Virus record (IMG/VR): IMGVR_UViG_3300020044_008626
Span: 1-34,427 of that record
Length of the DNA: 34,427 nt
DNA from: a virus
Lineage: Duplodnaviria; Caudoviricetes
Reading direction: 5' to 3' (one strand)
In this document: positions 1 through 33,868 of the stretch, piece by piece
How positions within the stretch are numbered: position 1 is the first letter of the stretch
Layout: every line of letters starts with the position of its first letter
Notes under the pieces: model-generated
Seen by the model: only the letters and a program-made list of their open reading frames with translations
Databases searched by the model: none
What the model was told of the DNA's origin: nothing
Translations under genes and position numbers: made by a program

Positions 1-214
1 CTCCTTTCGGCGCTGAGATTGTGCGGACCTCGGGATCTCCGAACCATTCGTGGCATGGCTTGAGGTAGCTCGTAAACGTCGGATCATAAAGCCCTGGGCG
101 ATTCGTGAACCGCTCGCTCATCCAGATTTCATTGGTGCAAAATTCCAGAATCTCGCGGCGCGTTCGTGGTCGCCAAAGTTCTATGAGTTGAGCGCGGATT
201 GAGTCGGGTTTCAT
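1..214 (-). CDS. terL: Terminase large subunit (GpA-like), N-terminal fragment running off the left edge
   Basis: Not in the ORF track. ATG at 214 overlaps the terS stop (ATGA). Translates as MKPDSIRAQLIELWRPRTRREILEFCTNEIWMSERFTNRPGLYDPTFTSYLKPCHEWFGDPEVRTISAPKG, resembling the GpA N-terminus up to the Walker A region. Confidence 0.85.
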   Translation of the reverse strand, partial: MKPDSIRAQLIELWRPRTRREILEFCTNEIWMSERFTNRPGLYDPTFTSYLKPCHEWFGDPEVRTISAPKG

Positions 215-789
215 TTGTTCAAATCAATCTCCTGCGCCGCAGCACAAATCGCGGCGATTTCTTTGTCCATCGCGGGCTTTAGAGTATCACGCATGTCATC
301 AGGCACCACGGCCATAAGACGGCGCGGAAGGGCTTCTAGCATCATCTTTACGCGCGTAACGTATGCAAACATGATTGCCTTTGGCAGCAGCTCGCCAGCA
401 CGCTCCAAGATGTCGGGATTGTCTTTTGCCAGCTTGCGCAGGCTGTCACGTTTTGATTCAAGAATGCGATGAACGAGGGCGGCTGATTCAAAGTCGCCCG
501 CTTCTTCCAGCGCGAATGCTTTGTGCGCAAGACGTTTGCACTCGGCCATGAGCCGGAAAATCTCAGCTTCGATTCCTTCGCCTAGCCCGTCGTCATCGAC
601 TTCAGGCAATGGTGGTGGTGGCTCCACTTCCTTTTTTGGCCTTCCGCCTTGCCGTGCTTTTTTCCAGTCTAGCCAGCGCGGATCGTCGTCTTTTCGCCAC
701 GCCGACACGGTGCGAAGCGTTACTTCGTGCTCCTTCGCGCAAAGGCGCAAAAGGCGAACGTCGTCGGTGTTGCGGGTTACTCCTGGCAT
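211..789 (-). CDS. terS: Terminase small subunit (Nu1-like)
   Basis: N-terminal HTH-like segment (HEVTLRTVSAWRK), helical C-terminus, translationally coupled to the terL N-terminus. Confidence 0.75.
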   Translation of the reverse strand: MPGVTRNTDDVRLLRLCAKEHEVTLRTVSAWRKDDDPRWLDWKKARQGGRPKKEVEPPPPLPEVDDDGLGEGIEAEIFRLMAECKRLAHKAFALEEAGDFESAALVHRILESKRDSLRKLAKDNPDILERAGELLPKAIMFAYVTRVKMMLEALPRRLMAVVPDDMRDTLKPAMDKEIAAICAAAQEIDLNK

Positions 790-807
790 GGTGTGGTTTT
801 GCGAAGG

Positions 808-844
808 TTAATCACACTTTGGGTGTGGATAATCGGTGTTCGGG
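808..844 (+). mobile_element. Array head (attI-like or secondary insertion site) with core site GTTCGGG at 838-844
   Basis: GTTCGGGCG (838-846) is the exact complement of CGCCCGAAC (976-984). There is a short imperfect palindrome at 808-832, but no AAC inverse core at the expected distance. Confidence 0.55.
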
Positions 845-1026
845 CGACCGAGGATTCGGGAGATTCTGTGAGCCAGCAGAGCCGCGCCTTTCCTCTCGGA
901 GCAGGCCCACACTTGGAATGCTTCGGGGTGGATTTTGCGATAGGCCCGATAGTCTCGGATTGCCTTCGCGCATTGCGCCCGAACAAGGCGCTGCTGGTCA
1001 ACAGCCGGAGCGGTGGAGTTTTTCAT
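808..1026 (-). CDS. Small hypothetical protein, cassette 1 ORF
   Basis: 72 aa. ATG lies inside attC 978-1077 and overlaps the upstream stop (ATGA). Reads through R' at 838-844. Confidence 0.7.
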   Translation of the reverse strand: MKNSTAPAVDQQRLVRAQCAKAIRDYRAYRKIHPEAFQVWACSERKGAALLAHRISRILGRPNTDYPHPKCD

Positions 1027-1077
1027 GGTGTCGGTGTCTGGTTGCGCTCCTGCTGTGCCAGAGCTTGGACGTTCTGG
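978..1077 (+). mobile_element. attC: Integron-type attC site (100 bp)
   Basis: R'' CCCGAAC, 5 nt, L'' GCT(G)CTGG, paired arms, L' CCAGAGC, 6 nt, R' GTTCTGG. Extra base at L'' position 4. Confidence 0.85.
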
Positions 1078-1361
1078 TTACCACTATCCCAGCCCATCGC
1101 ATCGCCGATCAGTGTAGCGTCAGCGTCTCCCCATCCGTGCCTGCCGATGAGATTGTAGTGAGTCCGTTGCAGCAGATCGAGGAGCCTGTTGAGCTCGGCT
1201 ACGGCGTCTTGCATGTCGCCAAGATCACCGCCATTGTCCGGCTTACTGATCCATCGTTCACCCGCGTCGTGAATCAGTCGGTAAACACCGCCAGAACGAG
1301 CGGATACAGGCAACCCAGTGGGGCCGTCTGTCGAAGTTTGAGAGTGGGTGTCTTCGGCCAT
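1023..1361 (-). CDS. Small hypothetical protein, cassette 2 ORF
   Basis: 112 aa. Starts inside attC 1291-1428 and stops inside attC 978-1077. Confidence 0.75.
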   Translation of the reverse strand: MAEDTHSQTSTDGPTGLPVSARSGGVYRLIHDAGERWISKPDNGGDLGDMQDAVAELNRLLDLLQRTHYNLIGRHGWGDADATLIGDAMGWDSGNQNVQALAQQERNQTPTP

Positions 1362-1428
1362 AGTTTTTAGTCGGTTGATTGTCTTTCGTGGTCATACCCC
1401 ATCGGTCGCCTGATCCTTGTCGTTCTGC
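1291..1428 (+). mobile_element. attC: Integron-type attC site (138 bp)
   Basis: R'' CCAGAAC, 5 nt, L'' GAT(A)CAGG, arms CAACC..TGGGG / CCCCA..GGTCG, L' CCTGATC, 6 nt, R' GTTCTGC. Confidence 0.85.
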
Positions 1429-1463
1429 GCATGTCGTAGAGAGTCCGCGCATTCCGTGAGCAG
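1392..1463 (-). pseudogene. 3' remnant of a third cassette ORF, cut by the inversion junction
   Basis: Reads LLTECADSLRHAQNDKDQATDGV*. Crosses R' with AAC as an Asn codon, like the other two ORFs. Confidence 0.5.
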
Positions 1464-2790
1464 CGAAGCCATGAAAAAGATGGAGCAAGCGTTTCTTTCG
1501 ATGACCGTAAAACTTTCCGGCGCTCAGTCTGAAAACAACCTTGCCTCTCGGCCCATTCGTTACCTCCTGAATGACGAGGTTGATAAATGGCCGCACGGTT
1601 TCCTTGGCATTGCAGAGGCCCGCACGCTGTCTTATCGCGGCGTTGATAAGATCGTCCGTGGATCAACATGCACGACTGAGGAAGGGCCGATTTGGATGAG
1701 CTGGATTAACAGCACTCAACACCTTTGGAATGTCGAATGCCCGGTCTGCAAAGCGCCGCAGGTGTTTGATTTTTTCAAGAGCGTTAAATGGAGCGCAGAT
1801 CACAAGGACGCCAAAGGCAATTGGAACATCGAAGCCGTGCGGCAATCAGCCTATGGTGTCTGCATTGTGAACGGGTGCGAGTTTAGCAGCAGCCAGCGAA
1901 ACGAAATGGTGAGAGCCGGGCAACCAGTCGCAACAAATCCTTTCGCGTCTCCACAGGATAAGGGCATTCATCTCCCCTCACTGCTTTCGCCGTTTCTTTC
2001 GTTTGGCGACTTGGCGGCGTTATGGCTGCAAAAGAAAAACACGCTCGCGGGCAAACAAGACTTTTATAACCAATACCTCGGCCTCCCGTGGAGCCATGAA
2101 GAATACAGCGTCAGCGAAGAGAAAGTCAGGGCTTGCCGCGCAATCGGCGAAAACTACTATTTGCTTGGCGAATGTCCGATTGACCCGGTGGACGTAACGC
2201 TATCGGCAGACGTAGGCGAAAAGGCAACGCATTGGAGCGTAGAAGCGACTGCGCATGACGGTCAAAGCTACGTTATCGACTACGGCATGGTTCTGGCCGT
2301 TGAGGACTTGCTTTCAATCATGCGCAAAGATTACCCGATTAAAGGCACTGAGAAGCGCGTGCGCATTACCTCTAGCGTGGTTGACTCAGGATACGCAACA
2401 GAGCGTGTCTATCGTGCCTGCGCGAACTCAGGCGGGCGCTTGTGGCCTATCAAGGGCAGCTCTGCCGAGTTCGGAAAGCCAGTTGATGCCGCCAGGATTC
2501 CGACATGGCCGACATTGCTCCTTTATACCTATGTGGACTTTTTTCACAAGGTGGCGCTTTACATTGACGCTATCGCCCGCCGCTCGTCGCCGCTTTGGTG
2601 GATTCCCGCGAACGTAGGCAACGACTTCATCGAAGGCCATTGCGGGCAGGAACTCAAAAGCAAGCAGACCGCTGCACGCTCAATCAAATTCTGGAAGCCG
2701 GTAGCAAACGACCACTTCGGAGATTGCTCGAAAGGGCATCGAATTATCCGAGATGTTCGCTCGCAATTCTACGGATTCGGGAATGCTTGA
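1459..2790 (+). CDS. terL: Terminase large subunit (GpA-like), central and C-terminal part; 5'-truncated
   Basis: GAQSENNLASRPIRYLLNDEVDKWP (Walker B), coupling motif GSTCT, CPVC, nuclease motifs ADVG and VDSGY, DHFGDC. The start of homology is approximate. Confidence 0.92.
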   Translation, partial: SSEAMKKMEQAFLSMTVKLSGAQSENNLASRPIRYLLNDEVDKWPHGFLGIAEARTLSYRGVDKIVRGSTCTTEEGPIWMSWINSTQHLWNVECPVCKAPQVFDFFKSVKWSADHKDAKGNWNIEAVRQSAYGVCIVNGCEFSSSQRNEMVRAGQPVATNPFASPQDKGIHLPSLLSPFLSFGDLAALWLQKKNTLAGKQDFYNQYLGLPWSHEEYSVSEEKVRACRAIGENYYLLGECPIDPVDVTLSADVGEKATHWSVEATAHDGQSYVIDYGMVLAVEDLLSIMRKDYPIKGTEKRVRITSSVVDSGYATERVYRACANSGGRLWPIKGSSAEFGKPVDAARIPTWPTLLLYTYVDFFHKVALYIDAIARRSSPLWWIPANVGNDFIEGHCGQELKSKQTAARSIKFWKPVANDHFGDCSKGHRIIRDVRSQFYGFGNA

Positions 2791-3819: not shown

Positions 3820-5390
3820 GTTCGCACCGATCACGGCACCGCGCCAAGATGCGGGCACTCCAGGAAGCAATGGTGCAATCAGCACCGCGTCCGGCTCATT
3901 CCGTTTCCGGCCTCGGCAAAGTTACCGACATTCTGAATCATTACGGCGGCACTGCTGGCGTTGAAGCTGCGAAGTGGACGCCTAACCGGGGGACGATGGA
4001 CTATGCGCCGCTAGACACGTCTCGCGTGCTCACAGGGGGCGCTAGAAAGACGGTCCTGCGTAAATGCCGCTGGCTTGCTATCAATGACGGTTACGCTCGC
4101 TTTCTCGTAAACGGCCTAGCTAACCTCATCGGCTTTTATCAGCTACAGCCAGCCACGAAAGACAAGGCATGGAACGCCATCGCGGAACGCCATTGGAAGA
4201 ATCGAATCAAGACGCCATCCGTTTTCGACCGCCTCGGCAAGTTCAATCACGCCAGATGGCAGTTGGCGCTTTCTCGCGGCTCAATTCGTGACGGTGACAT
4301 CCTGACTCTAAAGACATATGCCGCAAGCGGAGCGGGCCAGATCCTCATTTACGGCGGGCATCAAATCGACAGTGGCAACAGGCAAGACATCAGCAACCTG
4401 CGCGACGGCATCTATCACGACAATTTGATGGCACACACGGGATACAACCTCGTAAACCCGTCTGATTTATCGAAAAGCACCGTGGTTCGTGCATCAAACG
4501 CGATGTATTACGGCGACTTTTCCGATGCTGCGGAGCTTCGTCCTATGCCGCGCTTTACGCACGCGGTAAACGACCTGCATGACATCGCAGAGATCGACCT
4601 TGACTCAAAGCTTGGCATTAAGCGCCGCCAATTCATCGGGCTTTACAAGAAACGCGCCCATCAGAACATCTCCGGCAACCTCGGGCTTGGCGTTTACCAG
4701 TCTCCGCACACTGAAACCGGAGTCAACGTCACGAATACGAGCGCGGCTGGCGTAGAAACGACGCAAACGACGCTCATCAATGTGGAAGGCGTAACAGATC
4801 GCACCGGCATTGCTACTCTCGAAGCAGGCGAGGATTACGGCGTCGTGTCTGCGGACAATCCCGGCCCGAATGAGCGCGAATTTAACAAGGCACTGCTAAC
4901 AAAGATCAGCCTCGGCCTCGGTTTGCCACCTTCTACCGTGTTTGCAATGCTGGGCGCTGGCGGTCCTGAGGTGCGTTTCCATATGGCGCTCTTGCAACGC
5001 TGGATTCAGATCGAATTGCTGAACCTCCTGACCATCGTTCAGCAGCATTACTTCTGGATCATGGGAACGGACATCGCTCGCGGCGCTTTGCCTGAGCCTG
5101 ACGACGAACAATGGTGGAATAACATCGCTATTCCTTGCGCAGACCTCACAATCGACCGAGGACGCGAGCTAAACGGCAAGATCGCCGCGCTCAAAGTCGG
5201 CGCTCTAACTCATGCAGACATCTTCGCGGAGGCCGGTAAAGACTGGGAAGATCAACTCGAAATCCAGGCCGAAATCATCGCGCACGCAAGTGGCCTTGCT
5301 GCGCAAAAGGGACTCGCTGGCGGCTTGAGTGACCTCATGCCCGACTGGAACCCTCGGCAGCCTGCTATCACGCCAGTGACTAGGCCGTAA
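3816..5390 (+). CDS. Portal protein, lambda family
   Basis: 524 aa. R.L..ND.YA motif, RDGD, C-terminal GKDWED, and synteny. Confidence 0.85.
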   Translation: MSSHRSRHRAKMRALQEAMVQSAPRPAHSVSGLGKVTDILNHYGGTAGVEAAKWTPNRGTMDYAPLDTSRVLTGGARKTVLRKCRWLAINDGYARFLVNGLANLIGFYQLQPATKDKAWNAIAERHWKNRIKTPSVFDRLGKFNHARWQLALSRGSIRDGDILTLKTYAASGAGQILIYGGHQIDSGNRQDISNLRDGIYHDNLMAHTGYNLVNPSDLSKSTVVRASNAMYYGDFSDAAELRPMPRFTHAVNDLHDIAEIDLDSKLGIKRRQFIGLYKKRAHQNISGNLGLGVYQSPHTETGVNVTNTSAAGVETTQTTLINVEGVTDRTGIATLEAGEDYGVVSADNPGPNEREFNKALLTKISLGLGLPPSTVFAMLGAGGPEVRFHMALLQRWIQIELLNLLTIVQQHYFWIMGTDIARGALPEPDDEQWWNNIAIPCADLTIDRGRELNGKIAALKVGALTHADIFAEAGKDWEDQLEIQAEIIAHASGLAAQKGLAGGLSDLMPDWNPRQPAITPVTRP

Positions 5391-5405
5391 AATAGAAAAG
5401 TGAAA
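5387..5405 (+). promoter_or_regulatory. 19-bp motif, copy 2
   Basis: GTAAAATAGAAAAGTGAAA upstream of a TTGCTG-N17-AAAAT promoter-like sequence. Confidence 0.6.
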
Positions 5406-5445
5406 ATATACTTGCTGAATCAGTGGCAATCTGCAAAATGGCGCG

Positions 5446-5997
5446 ATGAAAATTTTAATCGCATGCGAATACAGCGGGGCCGTGAGAGACGCGTTTCTGG
5501 AACTTGGCCATGATGCAATTTCTTGCGATTTGCTACCGACTGACAAGCCGGGGCCGCATTATCAGGGCGACGTTTTCGACCTCGATTTAAAGAGTTTTGA
5601 TTTGATGATTGCTCACCCGCCATGCACGCATTTAGCAGTGAGCGGCGCTCGGCATTTTGCAGCCAAGCGAGCGGACGGCAGACAGCAGCATGCAATAGAG
5701 TTTTTCACGCGTTTGGCAAACGCGCCGATCCCACGCATCGCTATCGAGAACCCGGTTTGCGTAATGTCTAGCGTTTGGCGCAAGCCTGACCAAACAATTC
5801 AGCCATGGCAATTCGGCCATGGCGAAACGAAGGCAACGTGCCTTTGGCTCAAAGGTCTGCCAAAGCTGCAACCCACTAACATCGTGGATGGCCGGGAACA
5901 ACGCATTCACAAAATGCCACCAAGTGCTGACCGCTGGAAGCTGAGAAGCGCCACATACTCCGGAATCGCGCAAGCCATGGCGGAACAGTGGGGCTGA
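5446..5997 (+). CDS. Short phage C5-cytosine DNA methyltransferase-like protein
   Basis: KILIACEYSG (motif I variant), AHPPCT (catalytic PC), IENPV, QPWQFGH. Confidence 0.85.
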   Translation: MKILIACEYSGAVRDAFLELGHDAISCDLLPTDKPGPHYQGDVFDLDLKSFDLMIAHPPCTHLAVSGARHFAAKRADGRQQHAIEFFTRLANAPIPRIAIENPVCVMSSVWRKPDQTIQPWQFGHGETKATCLWLKGLPKLQPTNIVDGREQRIHKMPPSADRWKLRSATYSGIAQAMAEQWG

Positions 5998-7235: not shown

Positions 7236-8408
7236 ATGGCTAATGACATCTCTCTCACTGGGCTGACTGAAATCCTTTATCAGGCCCGCGATATGGTCGC
7301 ACGCGAACCCACTGGCTTCTCGCAAGGAGTCATGGTTAACGGCGGCTCTGAAGGCGTTTCCGCAGGCGGAACCGTCACCTCCATGCGCAGCACGGAGCCT
7401 ACACTTGAAACCAGCTACACTCCGGCAATGACGCCGCCCGACGCTGCTGACATCACCACTTCAACCGAGACTCTAACTCTCAGCAATTACGCTGGTGTTA
7501 GCATTCCGCTGAAGGGCGAGCAATTCCTCCAACTGCAAAACACCGTTGGCTCCGAAGAGGCTCTAAAGCAGCTTTACGCGCAAGCCATCCGCAAGATGGT
7601 CAACGCCGTCGAAGTCACCGTTGCAACCGCTGCATACAAGGGCGCTTCCCGCGCTGTTGGCACAGCTGGCACCACGCCCTTCGCGAGCAACTGGCACATC
7701 ATCAACGCCCTGCGACAGATCCTTGAAGACAACGGCACTCCTATGAGTGACGGCATGCTCTCACTGGTCATCAACTCCGCCGCCGGCACTAAGCTGCGTG
7801 ACCTCGCAACGCTGACGACTGTTAATCAGTCCGGCACTTCCGAAACCCTGCGTAATGGCGAACTGCTGAACCTCTCCGGCTTCAGCATTCGCACTTCCGC
7901 TGGCGTGCAAACGCACACGAAGGGCGCTGGCACTTCCTACGTCATCAACAACGGCAACATCACCGCTGGCTCGACTACGATCAGCGTTGACGGAGGCACC
8001 GTGAACACAACCGGCTTTAAGGCTGGCGACATCATCACGATTGCCGACGAACCCGCCGCTGCGAACTACGTCGTGAAGACCGGCCTCACTGCCGTTGCTG
8101 GCGACATCGTGCTTAATCACCCTGGCCTTCGTAGCGCCATTGTTGACGGCAAGGCTGTTACCATCGGCAACAACTACACCGCCAACGTCGGCTATCACAA
8201 GTCGGCTATTGAGCTTGCGATGCGCCCTCCTGCGCAGCCTCCAGGCGGTGACGTTGGCGAAGAAATCGCGGTTCTGGTCGATGAAAAGACCGGCCTCAGC
8301 TTCTCCGCTCGTCTCTACAAGGGCTATGGCATGAACCAGATCAAACTCATGGCCTTCTACGGCGTGAAGGTCTGGAAGCCTGAGTTTGTGGCAACCCTCA
8401 TGGGCTAA
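7236..8408 (+). CDS. Major capsid protein (P22 coat-like)
   Basis: 390 aa after the protease/scaffold gene. C-terminal YGVKVWKPEF. Followed by a strong terminator. Confidence 0.85.
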   Translation: MANDISLTGLTEILYQARDMVAREPTGFSQGVMVNGGSEGVSAGGTVTSMRSTEPTLETSYTPAMTPPDAADITTSTETLTLSNYAGVSIPLKGEQFLQLQNTVGSEEALKQLYAQAIRKMVNAVEVTVATAAYKGASRAVGTAGTTPFASNWHIINALRQILEDNGTPMSDGMLSLVINSAAGTKLRDLATLTTVNQSGTSETLRNGELLNLSGFSIRTSAGVQTHTKGAGTSYVINNGNITAGSTTISVDGGTVNTTGFKAGDIITIADEPAAANYVVKTGLTAVAGDIVLNHPGLRSAIVDGKAVTIGNNYTANVGYHKSAIELAMRPPAQPPGGDVGEEIAVLVDEKTGLSFSARLYKGYGMNQIKLMAFYGVKVWKPEFVATLMG

Positions 8409-8427
8409 GTCACACCGTAACACCAAA

Positions 8428-8460
8428 GCGCCCCGGTGACGACCTCACCGGGGCGTTTTT
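8428..8460 (+). terminator. Intrinsic terminator after the capsid gene
   Basis: GCGCCCCGGTGA/TCACCGGGGCGT stem followed by a T run. Confidence 0.85.
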
Positions 8461-8475
8461 ATAACCTCAAACATC

Positions 8476-8670
8476 ATGGCTAAAAAAGCATCATCCGCAC
8501 CCTCAGAAGAAACAGCGCCATCAAAGCCCTTTTTTGCTGTAGCTCTCGCGCTTCCGCGTGATTTGCCGAACATCATCACCGAGTATGAATACGAAGGCTA
8601 CGAAGTCTTCGCTATCGTCGCAACGCGAGACAGCAACGATCACGCCGCATACTTCCGGCTCAGTAATTGA
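8476..8670 (+). CDS. Small hypothetical protein
   Basis: 64 aa with an AC-rich leader. Confidence 0.65.
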   Translation: MAKKASSAPSEETAPSKPFFAVALALPRDLPNIITEYEYEGYEVFAIVATRDSNDHAAYFRLSN

Positions 8671-8683
8671 CACCGCGCATAGG

Positions 8684-8744
8684 GTGTTGTTCATGTGGCA
8701 TTGCCGCCGCCCGCGTGTCGTGTCGCGGGCGGCGGTTTCTTTTT
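8684..8744 (+). ncRNA. Predicted ~60-nt small RNA (or attenuated leader)
   Basis: ATTGACA at 8666-8672 upstream. 12-bp GC stem 8704-8735 with loop TGTCGTGT, then TTTCTTTTT. Confidence 0.5.
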
Positions 8745-8748
8745 ACGC

Positions 8749-9105
8749 ATGAAAGCTCTACTTACTCAGGCCGCGAAGCATTTTTTGCAGGTTCTAATCT
8801 CCGCCCATCCCGGTCACATCATCATCGGGACACGCACGATCAAATGCGCCGTGTTTACCGAACGAGGAGTAAAATGGGAAGGCGACGGCGGACAGATTCA
8901 ACAGCGTCTAATCAAGGCACAGATTCCATGCTCCGCGCTGCCTGATTCTGAGATCGTAAACGCGACAACGGATGCGACTCGACCCGTGCAATTTACGCAT
9001 CAAGAAACGGGTAAGATTTACCAGTTGAGCACGGACAACGCGCCGCTCAAAGATCCCACCGGCACTTATTGGCACATCACCGGGACGCAAGTCACAAAGA
9101 AATGA
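8749..9105 (+). CDS. Putative head closure/joining protein
   Basis: 118 aa from ATG 8749; assignment by synteny. Confidence 0.55.
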   Translation: MKALLTQAAKHFLQVLISAHPGHIIIGTRTIKCAVFTERGVKWEGDGGQIQQRLIKAQIPCSALPDSEIVNATTDATRPVQFTHQETGKIYQLSTDNAPLKDPTGTYWHITGTQVTKK

Positions 9106-9893
9106 TTTCCGGCAATGTCGAAATTGGCAACCTGTTAAAACGACTCCGCAAGGTGCCGAATGAAGCACCACGCATCATCAAAAAAGCAATCGACACGGAC
9201 GCACGCGGATTTGTGCGGGATATTGTAAACCTCACGCCGCCGTCGCAGGGTAAAGCTAACATTGAAAGCAAAAAGCGAGGCGAAGGGCGAGTTGAGGCGG
9301 ATGTGCGCAAGGCATACGGGACGCCATCGGATATGTGGCGATTGATCCGCGACAAAACAGGCGACAAGGGAATTGCAGATAATTTCTGGGCTTATGTAAA
9401 ACTCAAGCAGTGGTATCGAGCCAACGAAATAGCGCAGCGTATAACCGGATACAGCATCGACGTGTTTGACGGCGGAGCTGAGCATAAGAGACGAAGGAAT
9501 CCGCGAACGGGCCGAGTTATCGGAGGCGAGCAACCAAAGCATAAGCGCGTGTTTTTAGCGCCGGGACAAGAAAAAAACCTGAAGAAATACAGCAAGGCAA
9601 AACAGGCTCTTGTTGGAACGCTTGCGGCGGGATTTGTGCCAGCCGCTCAAGAGTTAGGCGTGAAACTGCCTGTCTGGGTGACTCGCCAAAGAATAACGCC
9701 CGGCACGATCAAAACGAGGCGCAACCAAATAAGCTATAGCATCGAAATTTCCAACACTGCTAGATACGCAAATAAAGCGGATTTGCCTCGGCAAATGCGA
9801 TTCATTTTGCAATCAACAAAGCGCAAAAAGCGCATCGCCAACGTCATCAAATACGAAATCGCCGCCGTGCTCAAAAAGCAGCGTTTGACATGA
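9102..9893 (+). CDS. Putative neck/tail completion protein (HK97 gp10-like position)
   Basis: Basic 263-aa protein, ATGA-coupled; assignment by synteny. Confidence 0.5.
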   Translation: MISGNVEIGNLLKRLRKVPNEAPRIIKKAIDTDARGFVRDIVNLTPPSQGKANIESKKRGEGRVEADVRKAYGTPSDMWRLIRDKTGDKGIADNFWAYVKLKQWYRANEIAQRITGYSIDVFDGGAEHKRRRNPRTGRVIGGEQPKHKRVFLAPGQEKNLKKYSKAKQALVGTLAAGFVPAAQELGVKLPVWVTRQRITPGTIKTRRNQISYSIEISNTARYANKADLPRQMRFILQSTKRKKRIANVIKYEIAAVLKKQRLT

Positions 9894-33550: not shown

Positions 33551-33868
33551 ATGAAAACAACTGGCATCTGCCCCGAACTTGCTCAGGCTCTGCAATCCTC
33601 CAGTCAATGGGAGCGCGATAACGAGCCGATGCGAATAGCGATGGGCGGCGTGGACCTGCTGGCAGTTGACCCAGCAAACGAGACGCTCATGGTAATGCGG
33701 GCGGTGTCTGCCGAAGTCCGCAACGGAAGGCCGCTAATCACAATGATCTGCCAACGTGTCGTAACCGGGAATGAATACCGGGACTGGCAACAGTCTGGAA
33801 ACGTCCCGATTCAATCGGGAGATGCAGGTTCAAATCCTGCCGTTGGCGCATTTTGCCCTTGTAAATAA
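33551..33868 (+). CDS. Hypothetical protein whose 3' end overlaps a tRNA-like element
   Basis: 105 aa with leader AAAAACACC. Confidence 0.55.
   Translation: MKTTGICPELAQALQSSSQWERDNEPMRIAMGGVDLLAVDPANETLMVMRAVSAEVRNGRPLITMICQRVVTGNEYRDWQQSGNVPIQSGDAGSNPAVGAFCPCK
33750..33848 (+). ncRNA. tRNA-like element with an expanded D-arm
   Basis: Acceptor stem GCCAACG/CGTTGGC, T-arm GCAGG-TTCAAAT-CCTGC, anticodon-like arm CCCGA-TTCAA-TCGGG. Confidence 0.6.

What the first reader, a model, noticed from the sequence alone, without database searches (positions are those of the whole stretch)
808..1463. Integron-type gene cassette array inside a phage genome, with no integrase, upstream of the terminase genes
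Seen in sequence: two imperfect palindromes (978-1077 and 1291-1428) have exact attC geometry: R''(7)-5 nt-L''(8, extra base at position 4) ... L'(7)-6 nt-R'(7). Each site's own R'' and R' match imperfectly, but each R'' is the perfect complement of the R' one site upstream: CCAGAAC (1291) with GTTCTGG (1071), and CGCCCGAAC (976) with GTTCGGGCG (838). Established knowledge: this is the footprint of circular cassettes inserted by IntI recombination at G/TT. It defines cassettes 839-1071 (233 bp) and 1072-1422 (351 bp), plus a third truncated one. Inference: the phage captures and shuffles accessory genes using a host integron integrase in trans, with an attI-like head at 808-844.
Basis: partly seen in the sequence, partly recalled or inferred. 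Interest (0 to 1): 0.92.

Follow-up and report, generated by a model that had tools for sequence, protein, structure and literature searches.

The report
Backwards phage integron that lost integrase
This phage carries a real integron docking site and two swappable gene cassettes just before its DNA-packaging genes, with every cassette gene facing backwards and stitched in frame across the recombination points; related phages keep the same docking site beside an integron integrase gene, so this one likely lost its own enzyme and would borrow one to swap genes.

Summary
Confirmed and extended. Both attC sites (978-1077, 1291-1428) are real: a covariance model built only from bacterial chromosomal attC sites finds them at those coordinates and nothing else near significance. 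The head (about 787-840) is a true attI: in five distinct related phages and a Verrucomicrobiaceae prophage-like contig the same site lies just upstream of an integron integrase gene; here that start codon opens the likely terS instead. Relatives and read contigs switch partners at G/TT, and two near-identical phages differ by three cassettes inserted exactly at attI. Its 'host integrase' idea is open: this attI matches a phage integrase clade, not host integrons. The 'third truncated cassette' is cut by an inversion that splits terL and is probably an assembly chimera. Phage attC clusters are published (Qi 2023); I found no paper on the reversed layout in eight searches. This scan reported reversed phage integrons before on other genomes. 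No recombination or expression was tested.

The parts
787..840 (+). attI site (crossover G838/T839) together with the ribosome-binding and start-codon module that in relatives starts intI; on the minus strand it also encodes the last 10 residues and stop of the cassette-1 gene
   Evidence: 45 of 54 nt identical to the attI-to-ATG stretch before intI in L049, 44 of 54 to L055; profile from 6 intI-adjacent sites hits the window only at 794-840, E 2.9e-4; alignment A2
839..1071 (+). cassette 1 (233 bp)
   Evidence: footprint 838/978; body shared with L009-L011, homology ending at 834-838
808..1026 (-). cassette-1 ORF, 72 aa, unknown function; starts in the loop of attC A, crosses G/TT 838 as in-frame Asn, stops in attI
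   Evidence: no Pfam, NCBIfam, PHROG or usable Atlas hit
978..1077 (+). attC A (100 nt)
   Evidence: same site with other neighbours in L015 (979-1075, 92%) and in read contigs of runs X7 and X13
1072..1422 (+). cassette 2 (351 bp)
   Evidence: footprint 1071/1291; read contigs cover 1070-1297 (X2) and 1070-1388 (X7) with unrelated sequence before 1070
1023..1361 (-). cassette-2 ORF, 112 aa, unknown function; starts in the loop of attC B, crosses G/TT 1071 as in-frame Asn, stops in attC A overlapping the next ATG (ATGA)
   Evidence: 11 homologues; in the 9 aligned, the conserved core ends at GWDSG-x-x-N and the tails differ
1291..1428 (+). attC B (138 nt)
   Evidence: X7 contig 1359-1425 then unrelated sequence
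1423..1472 (+). first 50 bases of cassette 3, cut by the inversion junction; its antisense ORF again reads AAC as Asn and stops at 1392-1394 inside attC B
   Evidence: contigs of X7 (1422-1472) and X10 (1420-1472) match with 0 differences and continue elsewhere
211..789 (-). likely terminase small subunit (by position only, no family hit); its ATG sits where relatives have the intI ATG
   Evidence: stop overlaps the terL start
1..214 (-). 5' end of gpA-type terL, cut by the contig end
   Evidence: 91% identical to L001 1696-1907, the start of an intact terL
1461..1472 (.). inversion junction joining cassette 3 to the middle of terL; about 181 bp of terL absent; probably an assembly or amplification chimera
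1465..2790 (+). 3' part of gpA-type terL
   Evidence: GpA_ATPase profile 102-245 and GpA_nuclease; 86% to L001 2089-3408

Best explanation
The region is the attI site and first cassettes of a phage-adapted integron whose genes all face backwards; relatives keep an integron integrase gene at the very start codon that here opens the likely terS, so this phage likely lost intI and would swap cassettes with an integrase supplied in trans, most likely one of the phage-borne clade that matches this attI. How it works: SHOWN - cassettes are G/TT-to-G/TT units that change neighbours in relatives and insert at attI; each gene begins in the loop of its own attC, runs antisense through the cassette and crosses the crossover with AAC read as Asn, so it takes its last few residues and its stop from whichever attC or attI lies next, and any order leaves the frames whole. 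ESTABLISHED for integrons (PMC5027507) - IntI cleaves AAC on the folded bottom strand of attC; here that strand is the coding strand. INFERRED - the array is read from a phage promoter at the far end, through the cassettes and attI into terS-terL, so a new cassette lands last in the operon, next to the packaging genes, the reverse of a Pc-driven integron; intI was dropped or exchanged at the ATG while attI stayed because it also carries a stop codon and the next gene's translation start; integration at this attI is done mainly by a phage-clade IntI from a prophage, a co-infecting phage or the unsequenced part of this genome, while a host IntI could still excise cassettes (attC x attC). Host likely Verrucomicrobiota.
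For: attC. attI homology and intI linkage: head pattern found 7 loci; in L017/L021/L022 (one phage) the head is followed by a 330-aa protein scoring 344 bits on TIGR02249, cut-off 265; same site before intI in L052-L054, L055/56, L057, L058, L033 and L059; independent profile hits only 794-840. Insertion at attI: L052 and L054 are 99.6-100% identical but L054 holds 1,801 extra bases (three cassettes) from AA|C to AA|C at attI, and the same HTH gene ends KSEN-SDYPEQLSI, KSEN-DPHQATASDGRLQT or KSEN-A by neighbour. intI-less attI with changing first cassettes: L016 and L018 are 94% identical from the crossover on and unrelated before it; an X2 contig spans 740-841 (terS start plus attI) then diverges, and loose ends fall at 840-845, 1070, 1074-1076 and 1420-1425 in runs of four studies. 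Shared cassettes: of 27 distinct hits, the left end lay within 8 nt of G/TT in 14, ran on in 8, other 5; the right end at the next G/TT in 11, ran on 10, inside attC 5, other 1 (reciprocal pairs counted twice). Orientation: perfect-L-box cassettes have the longer ORF antisense in 29 of 30 viral versus 4 of 21 bacterial-genome cases (L059 apart: 3 of 4); the AAC frame is the longest open frame in 26 of 30 versus 7 of 21. Phage IntIs plus L059 form one branch, SH-aLRT 98 (quick tree, 87 rows). Verrucomicrobiota: L059 is a Verrucomicrobiaceae MAG contig, 71% to the phage IntI; best terL hit is an Akkermansia phage, 31%.
Against: No recombination, circle or transcript was observed. The contig is linear and incomplete, so intI may lie in the missing part (L055 has two attI copies and one intI). 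L016 and L018 are fragments (13% and 21% complete), so they may also hide an intI. Different first cassettes at an intI-less attI could arise by homologous module exchange; the window encodes RecT and YqaJ. Cassette-1 homologues L009/L010 and the head in L142 are eroded, so decay happens. The orientation test gave the antisense strand 80 extra bases, near-copies of one cassette count four times, and 5 of the 35 viral calls were weaker one-mismatch sites. terS is assigned by position only. attC A folds only weakly (z -1.46).
Confidence: 0.72

Rival explanations
1. Same reversed array, but loaded and shuffled by the host's chromosomal integron integrase.
For: [quoted passage not shown] Two complete phage records with arrays, G007 and G010, have no IntI. 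IntI1 recombines phage attC sites (PMC9892861).
Against: The attI profile matched 1 of 80 bacterial intI loci, the prophage-like L059; host cores lie 171-339 nt from intI with other flanks; host cassettes carry sense genes, so the two cassette pools differ; non-cognate attI/IntI pairs are generally inefficient (PMC8946536).
Confidence: 0.15
2. A frozen relic: the attI-array block was moved in front of terS by homologous or microhomology recombination from an intI-bearing phage and is kept only for its genes and translation start; it no longer recombines site-specifically.
For: No intI in the contig; RecT/YqaJ present; terS relatives have no attI (L001, L141), an eroded one (L142) or arrays between terS and terL instead.
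Against: Both R'' boxes still match their upstream cores perfectly and both L boxes are perfect; terS- or terL-linked attI sites carry different first cassettes that change at the crossover itself.
Confidence: 0.12
3. Chance palindromes or terminator-like hairpins between small phage genes, or an assembly artefact.
For: The contig does hold a probable chimeric junction 40-50 nt from attC B.
Against: Null tests, model hits, intI linkage and independent contigs for each module.
Confidence: 0.01

Closest known systems
Phage-borne integrons and CALINs (Qi et al. 2023, PMC9892861; main text parts 2-4 of 7 and part 1 of 2 of the supplement read; figures and the Dryad annotation file not seen)
   Same: Clusters of attC sites without intI in phage genomes, cargo including DNA methyltransferases; IntI1 recombined 5 of 6 tested phage attC sites.
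   Different: In the parts read, complete integrons are captured host or class 1 integrons, and nothing is said of antisense genes, in-frame junctions or a phage IntI clade. In TJE1 the three attC hits are on the same strand as the genes. Here an attI is present and traced to an intI-bearing phage platform.
Canonical integron (intI-attI-attC array; Cury et al. 2016 PMC4889954 and Nivina et al. 2016 PMC5027507, passages read)
   Same: attC box geometry with an extra base in L'', G/TT crossover, cassette footprint, intI pointing away from the array on the strand opposite attC (in relatives), insertion at attI.
   Different: Genes antisense to attC and co-oriented with intI; no Pc-type promoter found; att sites are coding; attI core only about 50-60 nt from the intI start; intI absent here.
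Inverted-integrase ('reverse') integrons of Treponema and others (PMC4889954, PMC13323075, passages read)
   Same: intI and cassette genes point the same way.
   Different: There intI is on the same strand as attC and the genes are sense; here intI/attC polarity is the regular one and it is the genes that are flipped.
Synthetic attC sites embedded in protein-coding sequence (Nivina et al. 2020, PMC7439510, passages read)
   Same: attC sites double as peptide-coding DNA and still recombine.
   Different: Those are engineered; here natural sites encode protein termini, and the Asn codon at the crossover fixes the frame.

Membership tests
Integron cassette array (attC) | R''-L''...L'-R' boxes with conserved AAC/GTT, extra base in L'', 5/6-nt spacers | tested here: met
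Integron cassette array (attC) | R'' of each cassette complements the core at its own start (circular-cassette footprint) | tested here: met
   2 of 2 complete cassettes
Integron cassette array (attC) | Cassettes gained, lost or moved with breakpoints at G/TT | tested here: met
Integron cassette array (attC) | Bottom strand folds more stably than chance | tested here: inconclusive
   attC B z -3.85; attC A z -1.46
Integron cassette array (attC) | Hit with the IntegronFinder or HattCI model | not testable with these tools
   not available; a model built here from 17 chromosomal sites was used instead
Integron cassette array (attC) | IntI-dependent recombination | not testable with these tools
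   needs a bench assay
Complete integron | attI at the head of the array | tested here: met
   homologous to the site before intI in 5 distinct phages, L033 and L059; insertion there in L052 versus L054
Complete integron | intI next to attI | tested here: not met
   terS-like gene in its place; no PF00589 match in G000; met in relatives
Complete integron | Cassette genes on the attC top strand, read from Pc near attI | tested here: not met
   genes antisense; no sigma-70-type promoter in 600-1600
CALIN | Two or more attC sites on one strand within 4 kb and no intI nearby | tested here: met
   limited by the contig end 800 nt away and the junction at about 1465
Inverted-integrase integron | intI on the same strand as attC | tested here: not met
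   in the intI-bearing relatives the attC hits lie opposite intI

The most novel reading that the evidence does not exclude
Phages of Verrucomicrobiota run their own integron lineage: a phage-specific IntI clade, its own attI, and a shared pool of backwards cassettes whose att sites are coding junctions. intI-less phages such as this one keep attI and take the integrase from helper prophages or co-infecting phages, making the region before the terminase a site-specific, phage-to-phage gene exchange.
Probability: 0.45. Interest if true: 0.87.

Novelty: new variant of a known kind. Interest (0 to 1): 0.74.

Why it matters
Phage accessory regions are usually explained by homologous or illegitimate recombination. 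Here the small genes before the terminase move as integron cassettes with base-exact ends, which gives a site-specific mechanism for phage mosaicism. The reversed layout inverts integron logic (no Pc, newest gene last, tails donated by neighbours), shows that natural att sites can be protein-coding, and raises the question how backwards cassettes are made, which bears on the open problem of cassette origin. The matched set found here (IntI, cognate attI, empty and filled alleles, host integrons with the same attC type) makes the mechanism directly testable in laboratory E. coli.

Tried and rejected
Rfam: only a tRNA-like hit at 33750-33848, nothing at the array. Head as a degenerate attC: box geometry does not fit and neither scan calls it. 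Related-locus search with the cassette-2 protein in viral contigs: 3 pattern matches, none confirmed. No family for either cassette protein. Promoter scan of 600-1600: 0 sites, shuffles 0.3. Expression: no RNA holder listed. IntI in relatives' whole records: none over the cut-off in 10 of 10; 3 of them complete, the others fragments; G003 has an ordinary weakly scoring tyrosine recombinase. Metagenome scan with terS gave 2 loci, neither with this attI intact. The window's inversion as an IntI product: the junction (about 1461-1472) is not at a G/TT; none of the 6 runs laid lists a joint for it, but none holds this exact genome (best share 0.21), so a chimera is likely, not proven. Cassette bodies swapping attC at R'': seen in one contig (X2, end at 1297) and suggested by varied N-termini, but 0 of 27 hits ended at R''; not claimed. 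Terminase identity of the 655-679 aa genes after attI in L013/L016/L018/L055: no Pfam, PHROG or PDB hit; only an Atlas lead to Terminase_6N and weak hits to annotated large terminases. The careful IntI tree did not finish; the quick tree is used. The first Fisher table printed was mis-entered and is ignored. Earlier-findings look-ups by sequence and by place returned nothing. Literature: eight searches gave no paper describing antisense cassette arrays in phages; most subscription papers and bioRxiv supplements are outside the library. Passages of PMC8876359 and 10.64898/2026.09.14.751636 were read and did not bear on it.

Full report
Observation. The two palindromes are present as described. 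They are the only two sites in the window with perfect L boxes; resampled sequence gives 0.15 per window and no chained pair in 150 trials. A covariance model built from 17 attC sites of bacterial genome loci with sense-strand genes, none from phage records (L-box pairs 96.5% paired with changes on both sides in 7 of 7, though those sites were chosen for pairing), finds 978-1077 at E 2e-12 and 1291-1428 at E 6e-4, the next hit being E 0.28. The window is the whole record, a linear lambda-like phage contig with gpA terminase, portal, ClpP, coat, RecT, YqaJ, RusA and DnaB genes and no tyrosine recombinase.

The head is an attI. An exact pattern from the head found 7 viral loci. All share the head from the AAC onward and differ before it; the next gene starts at the same offset in all. 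In one phage (L017/L021/L022) that gene is an integron integrase (TIGR02249 344 bits, cut-off 265); in L016, L018 and L019/L020 it is a 655-674 aa likely large terminase; in the window it is the likely terS. Searching with that integrase gave 10 viral loci, five distinct phages, all with a related site 50-60 nt before intI; L033, found by an attC pattern, and L059, a Verrucomicrobiaceae MAG contig, have it too. A profile from six such sites that were not picked by the head pattern (their positions were read off the wider profile) hits the window once, at 794-840. L052 and L054 are 99.6-100% identical except for 1,801 bases, three cassettes, inserted at exactly this AA|C. That is an empty and a filled allele of the site.

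Cassettes move as G/TT units. Cassette 1's body is shared with L009-L011 and homology stops at 834-838; attC A is shared with L015 and stops at 1075; the head is shared with L013/L014 and stops at 843. Contigs from public runs of four studies break at 840-845, 1070, 1074-1076 and 1420-1425, and one spans the terS start and attI before going on into other sequence. Among 36 cassettes compared (8 doubtful calls dropped first), 27 distinct hits had 14 left ends and 11 right ends at a G/TT, most of the rest running on in near-identical contigs. L059 holds one 636-bp cassette twice with exact ends.

The genes face backwards and use the sites as code. ORFs 1361-1023 and 1026-808 and the end of a third (stop 1392-1394) are all on the minus strand; each starts in one attC and stops in the next site, and in all three the AAC opposite GTT is an in-frame Asn. 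Nine aligned homologues of the cassette-2 protein share a core up to about that Asn and have unrelated tails. Across fetched loci, perfect-L-box cassettes had the longer ORF antisense in 29 of 30 viral cases against 4 of 21 in bacterial genome loci other than L059, and the AAC frame was the longest open one in 26 of 30 against 7 of 21 (all calls: 31 of 35 against 12 of 39). Caveats: the antisense strand was given 80 extra bases and only exact duplicates were removed. In ten relatives scanned with the model, 42 of 43 hits lie opposite the + strand, which is the gene strand there, and the remaining one (L018) is also antisense to its genes. Cargo in relatives includes a DNA methylase, a PAPS-reductase-family protein and HTH proteins; the window's two proteins have no known family.

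Mechanism. IntI cleaves the AAC of the folded attC bottom strand (PMC5027507, passages), here the coding strand. Because the crossover lies within an Asn codon in a fixed frame, excision and insertion keep every gene open and change only its last 2-30 residues. I infer transcription from the far end through attI into the packaging genes, so the newest cassette is last; no promoter was found in 600-1600 and no RNA data exist. I infer that intI was lost or exchanged at its ATG and that attI stayed partly because it carries a stop and a translation start; L055 shows the module duplicated before another gene. For the enzyme in trans: phage IntIs and L059 form one branch (SH-aLRT 98, quick tree); their attI was found at 1 of 80 bacterial intI loci; non-cognate attI/IntI pairs are generally inefficient (PMC8946536, passage). 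Verrucomicrobiota chromosomal integrons carry the same attC type with sense genes, so a host enzyme could excise cassettes. Two complete phage records hold arrays and no IntI, so integrase-less arrays are not only an effect of broken contigs.

The inversion. Window 1-1464 is inverted against the rest: terL's first 71 codons lie at 214-1 on the minus strand and its remainder starts at 1465 on the plus strand, with 181 bases missing relative to the intact gene of L001. Bases 1422-1472 occur unchanged as a cassette start in two other contigs that continue differently, and an X7 contig joins 740 and 1461 in the normal terS-terL order. A chimera is likely but unproven. It explains the 'truncated third cassette' and means the array's true length and the promoter region are unknown.

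Known and new. Phage attC clusters and their recombination by IntI1 are published (PMC9892861); the TJE1 cluster there is in the ordinary orientation. 'Inverted' integrons in the literature have intI flipped, not the genes. Coding attC sites were engineered. Eight searches found no paper on the reversed layout. Unchecked notes of this scan describe reversed phage arrays in other genomes; I reached my reading before seeing them and do not count them as support. What this locus adds is the direct link between an integrase-less array and its intI-bearing platform, at one start codon.

Verdict. Real; a new variant of the integron; interest 0.74. Confidence is high (about 0.97) that it is an integron-derived reversed array, and 0.72 for the full mechanism including present-day loading by a phage-clade integrase in trans.

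Noticed in passing
window 1-214 and 1461-2790: terL is split and its two parts lie on opposite strands, 181 bp missing; probable chimeric contig.
   Followed up: yes
window 33750-33848: tRNA-like hit (Rfam RF00005, 36.2 bits) with a 33-nt insert in the D-loop region, overlapping ORF 33551-33868.
   Followed up: no
L001 838-1283; L002 1558-5136: The closest terS relatives carry reversed attC arrays between terS and terL instead of before terS (2 and about 10 sites).
   Followed up: partly
L001 1-80, L142 1-80, L141 955-1036: Two contigs begin at the same base of a conserved AT-rich stretch upstream of terS; possible genome end (cos) or late promoter, absent from the window.
   Followed up: no
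L055 5950 and 10590: One complete phage holds two copies of the attI module, one before intI and one before a small ORF, each with its own array.
   Followed up: partly
L142 545-592: attI core lost: a cassette end is fused straight to the translation-start part of the head before terS.
   Followed up: no
window 826-840 and alignment A2: These phage attI sites have TAA five bases before GTT, one fewer than the Shewanella attI quoted in PMC9892861; a second conserved TA lies about 30 nt from the crossover.
   Followed up: no
L024 6074-7060, L033 2711-3757: A second, distant group of phage IntI-like proteins (31-34% identity, long branches) also sits beside reversed arrays.
   Followed up: partly
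L144 (KX853513) 4680-5678 and 7921-9434: Virus Rctr41k carries an IntI-like gene annotated xerD with same-strand attC hits downstream, genes sense.
   Followed up: no
window 7236-8408: P22-type coat protein combined with lambda-type terminase, portal and a ClpP protease.
   Followed up: no
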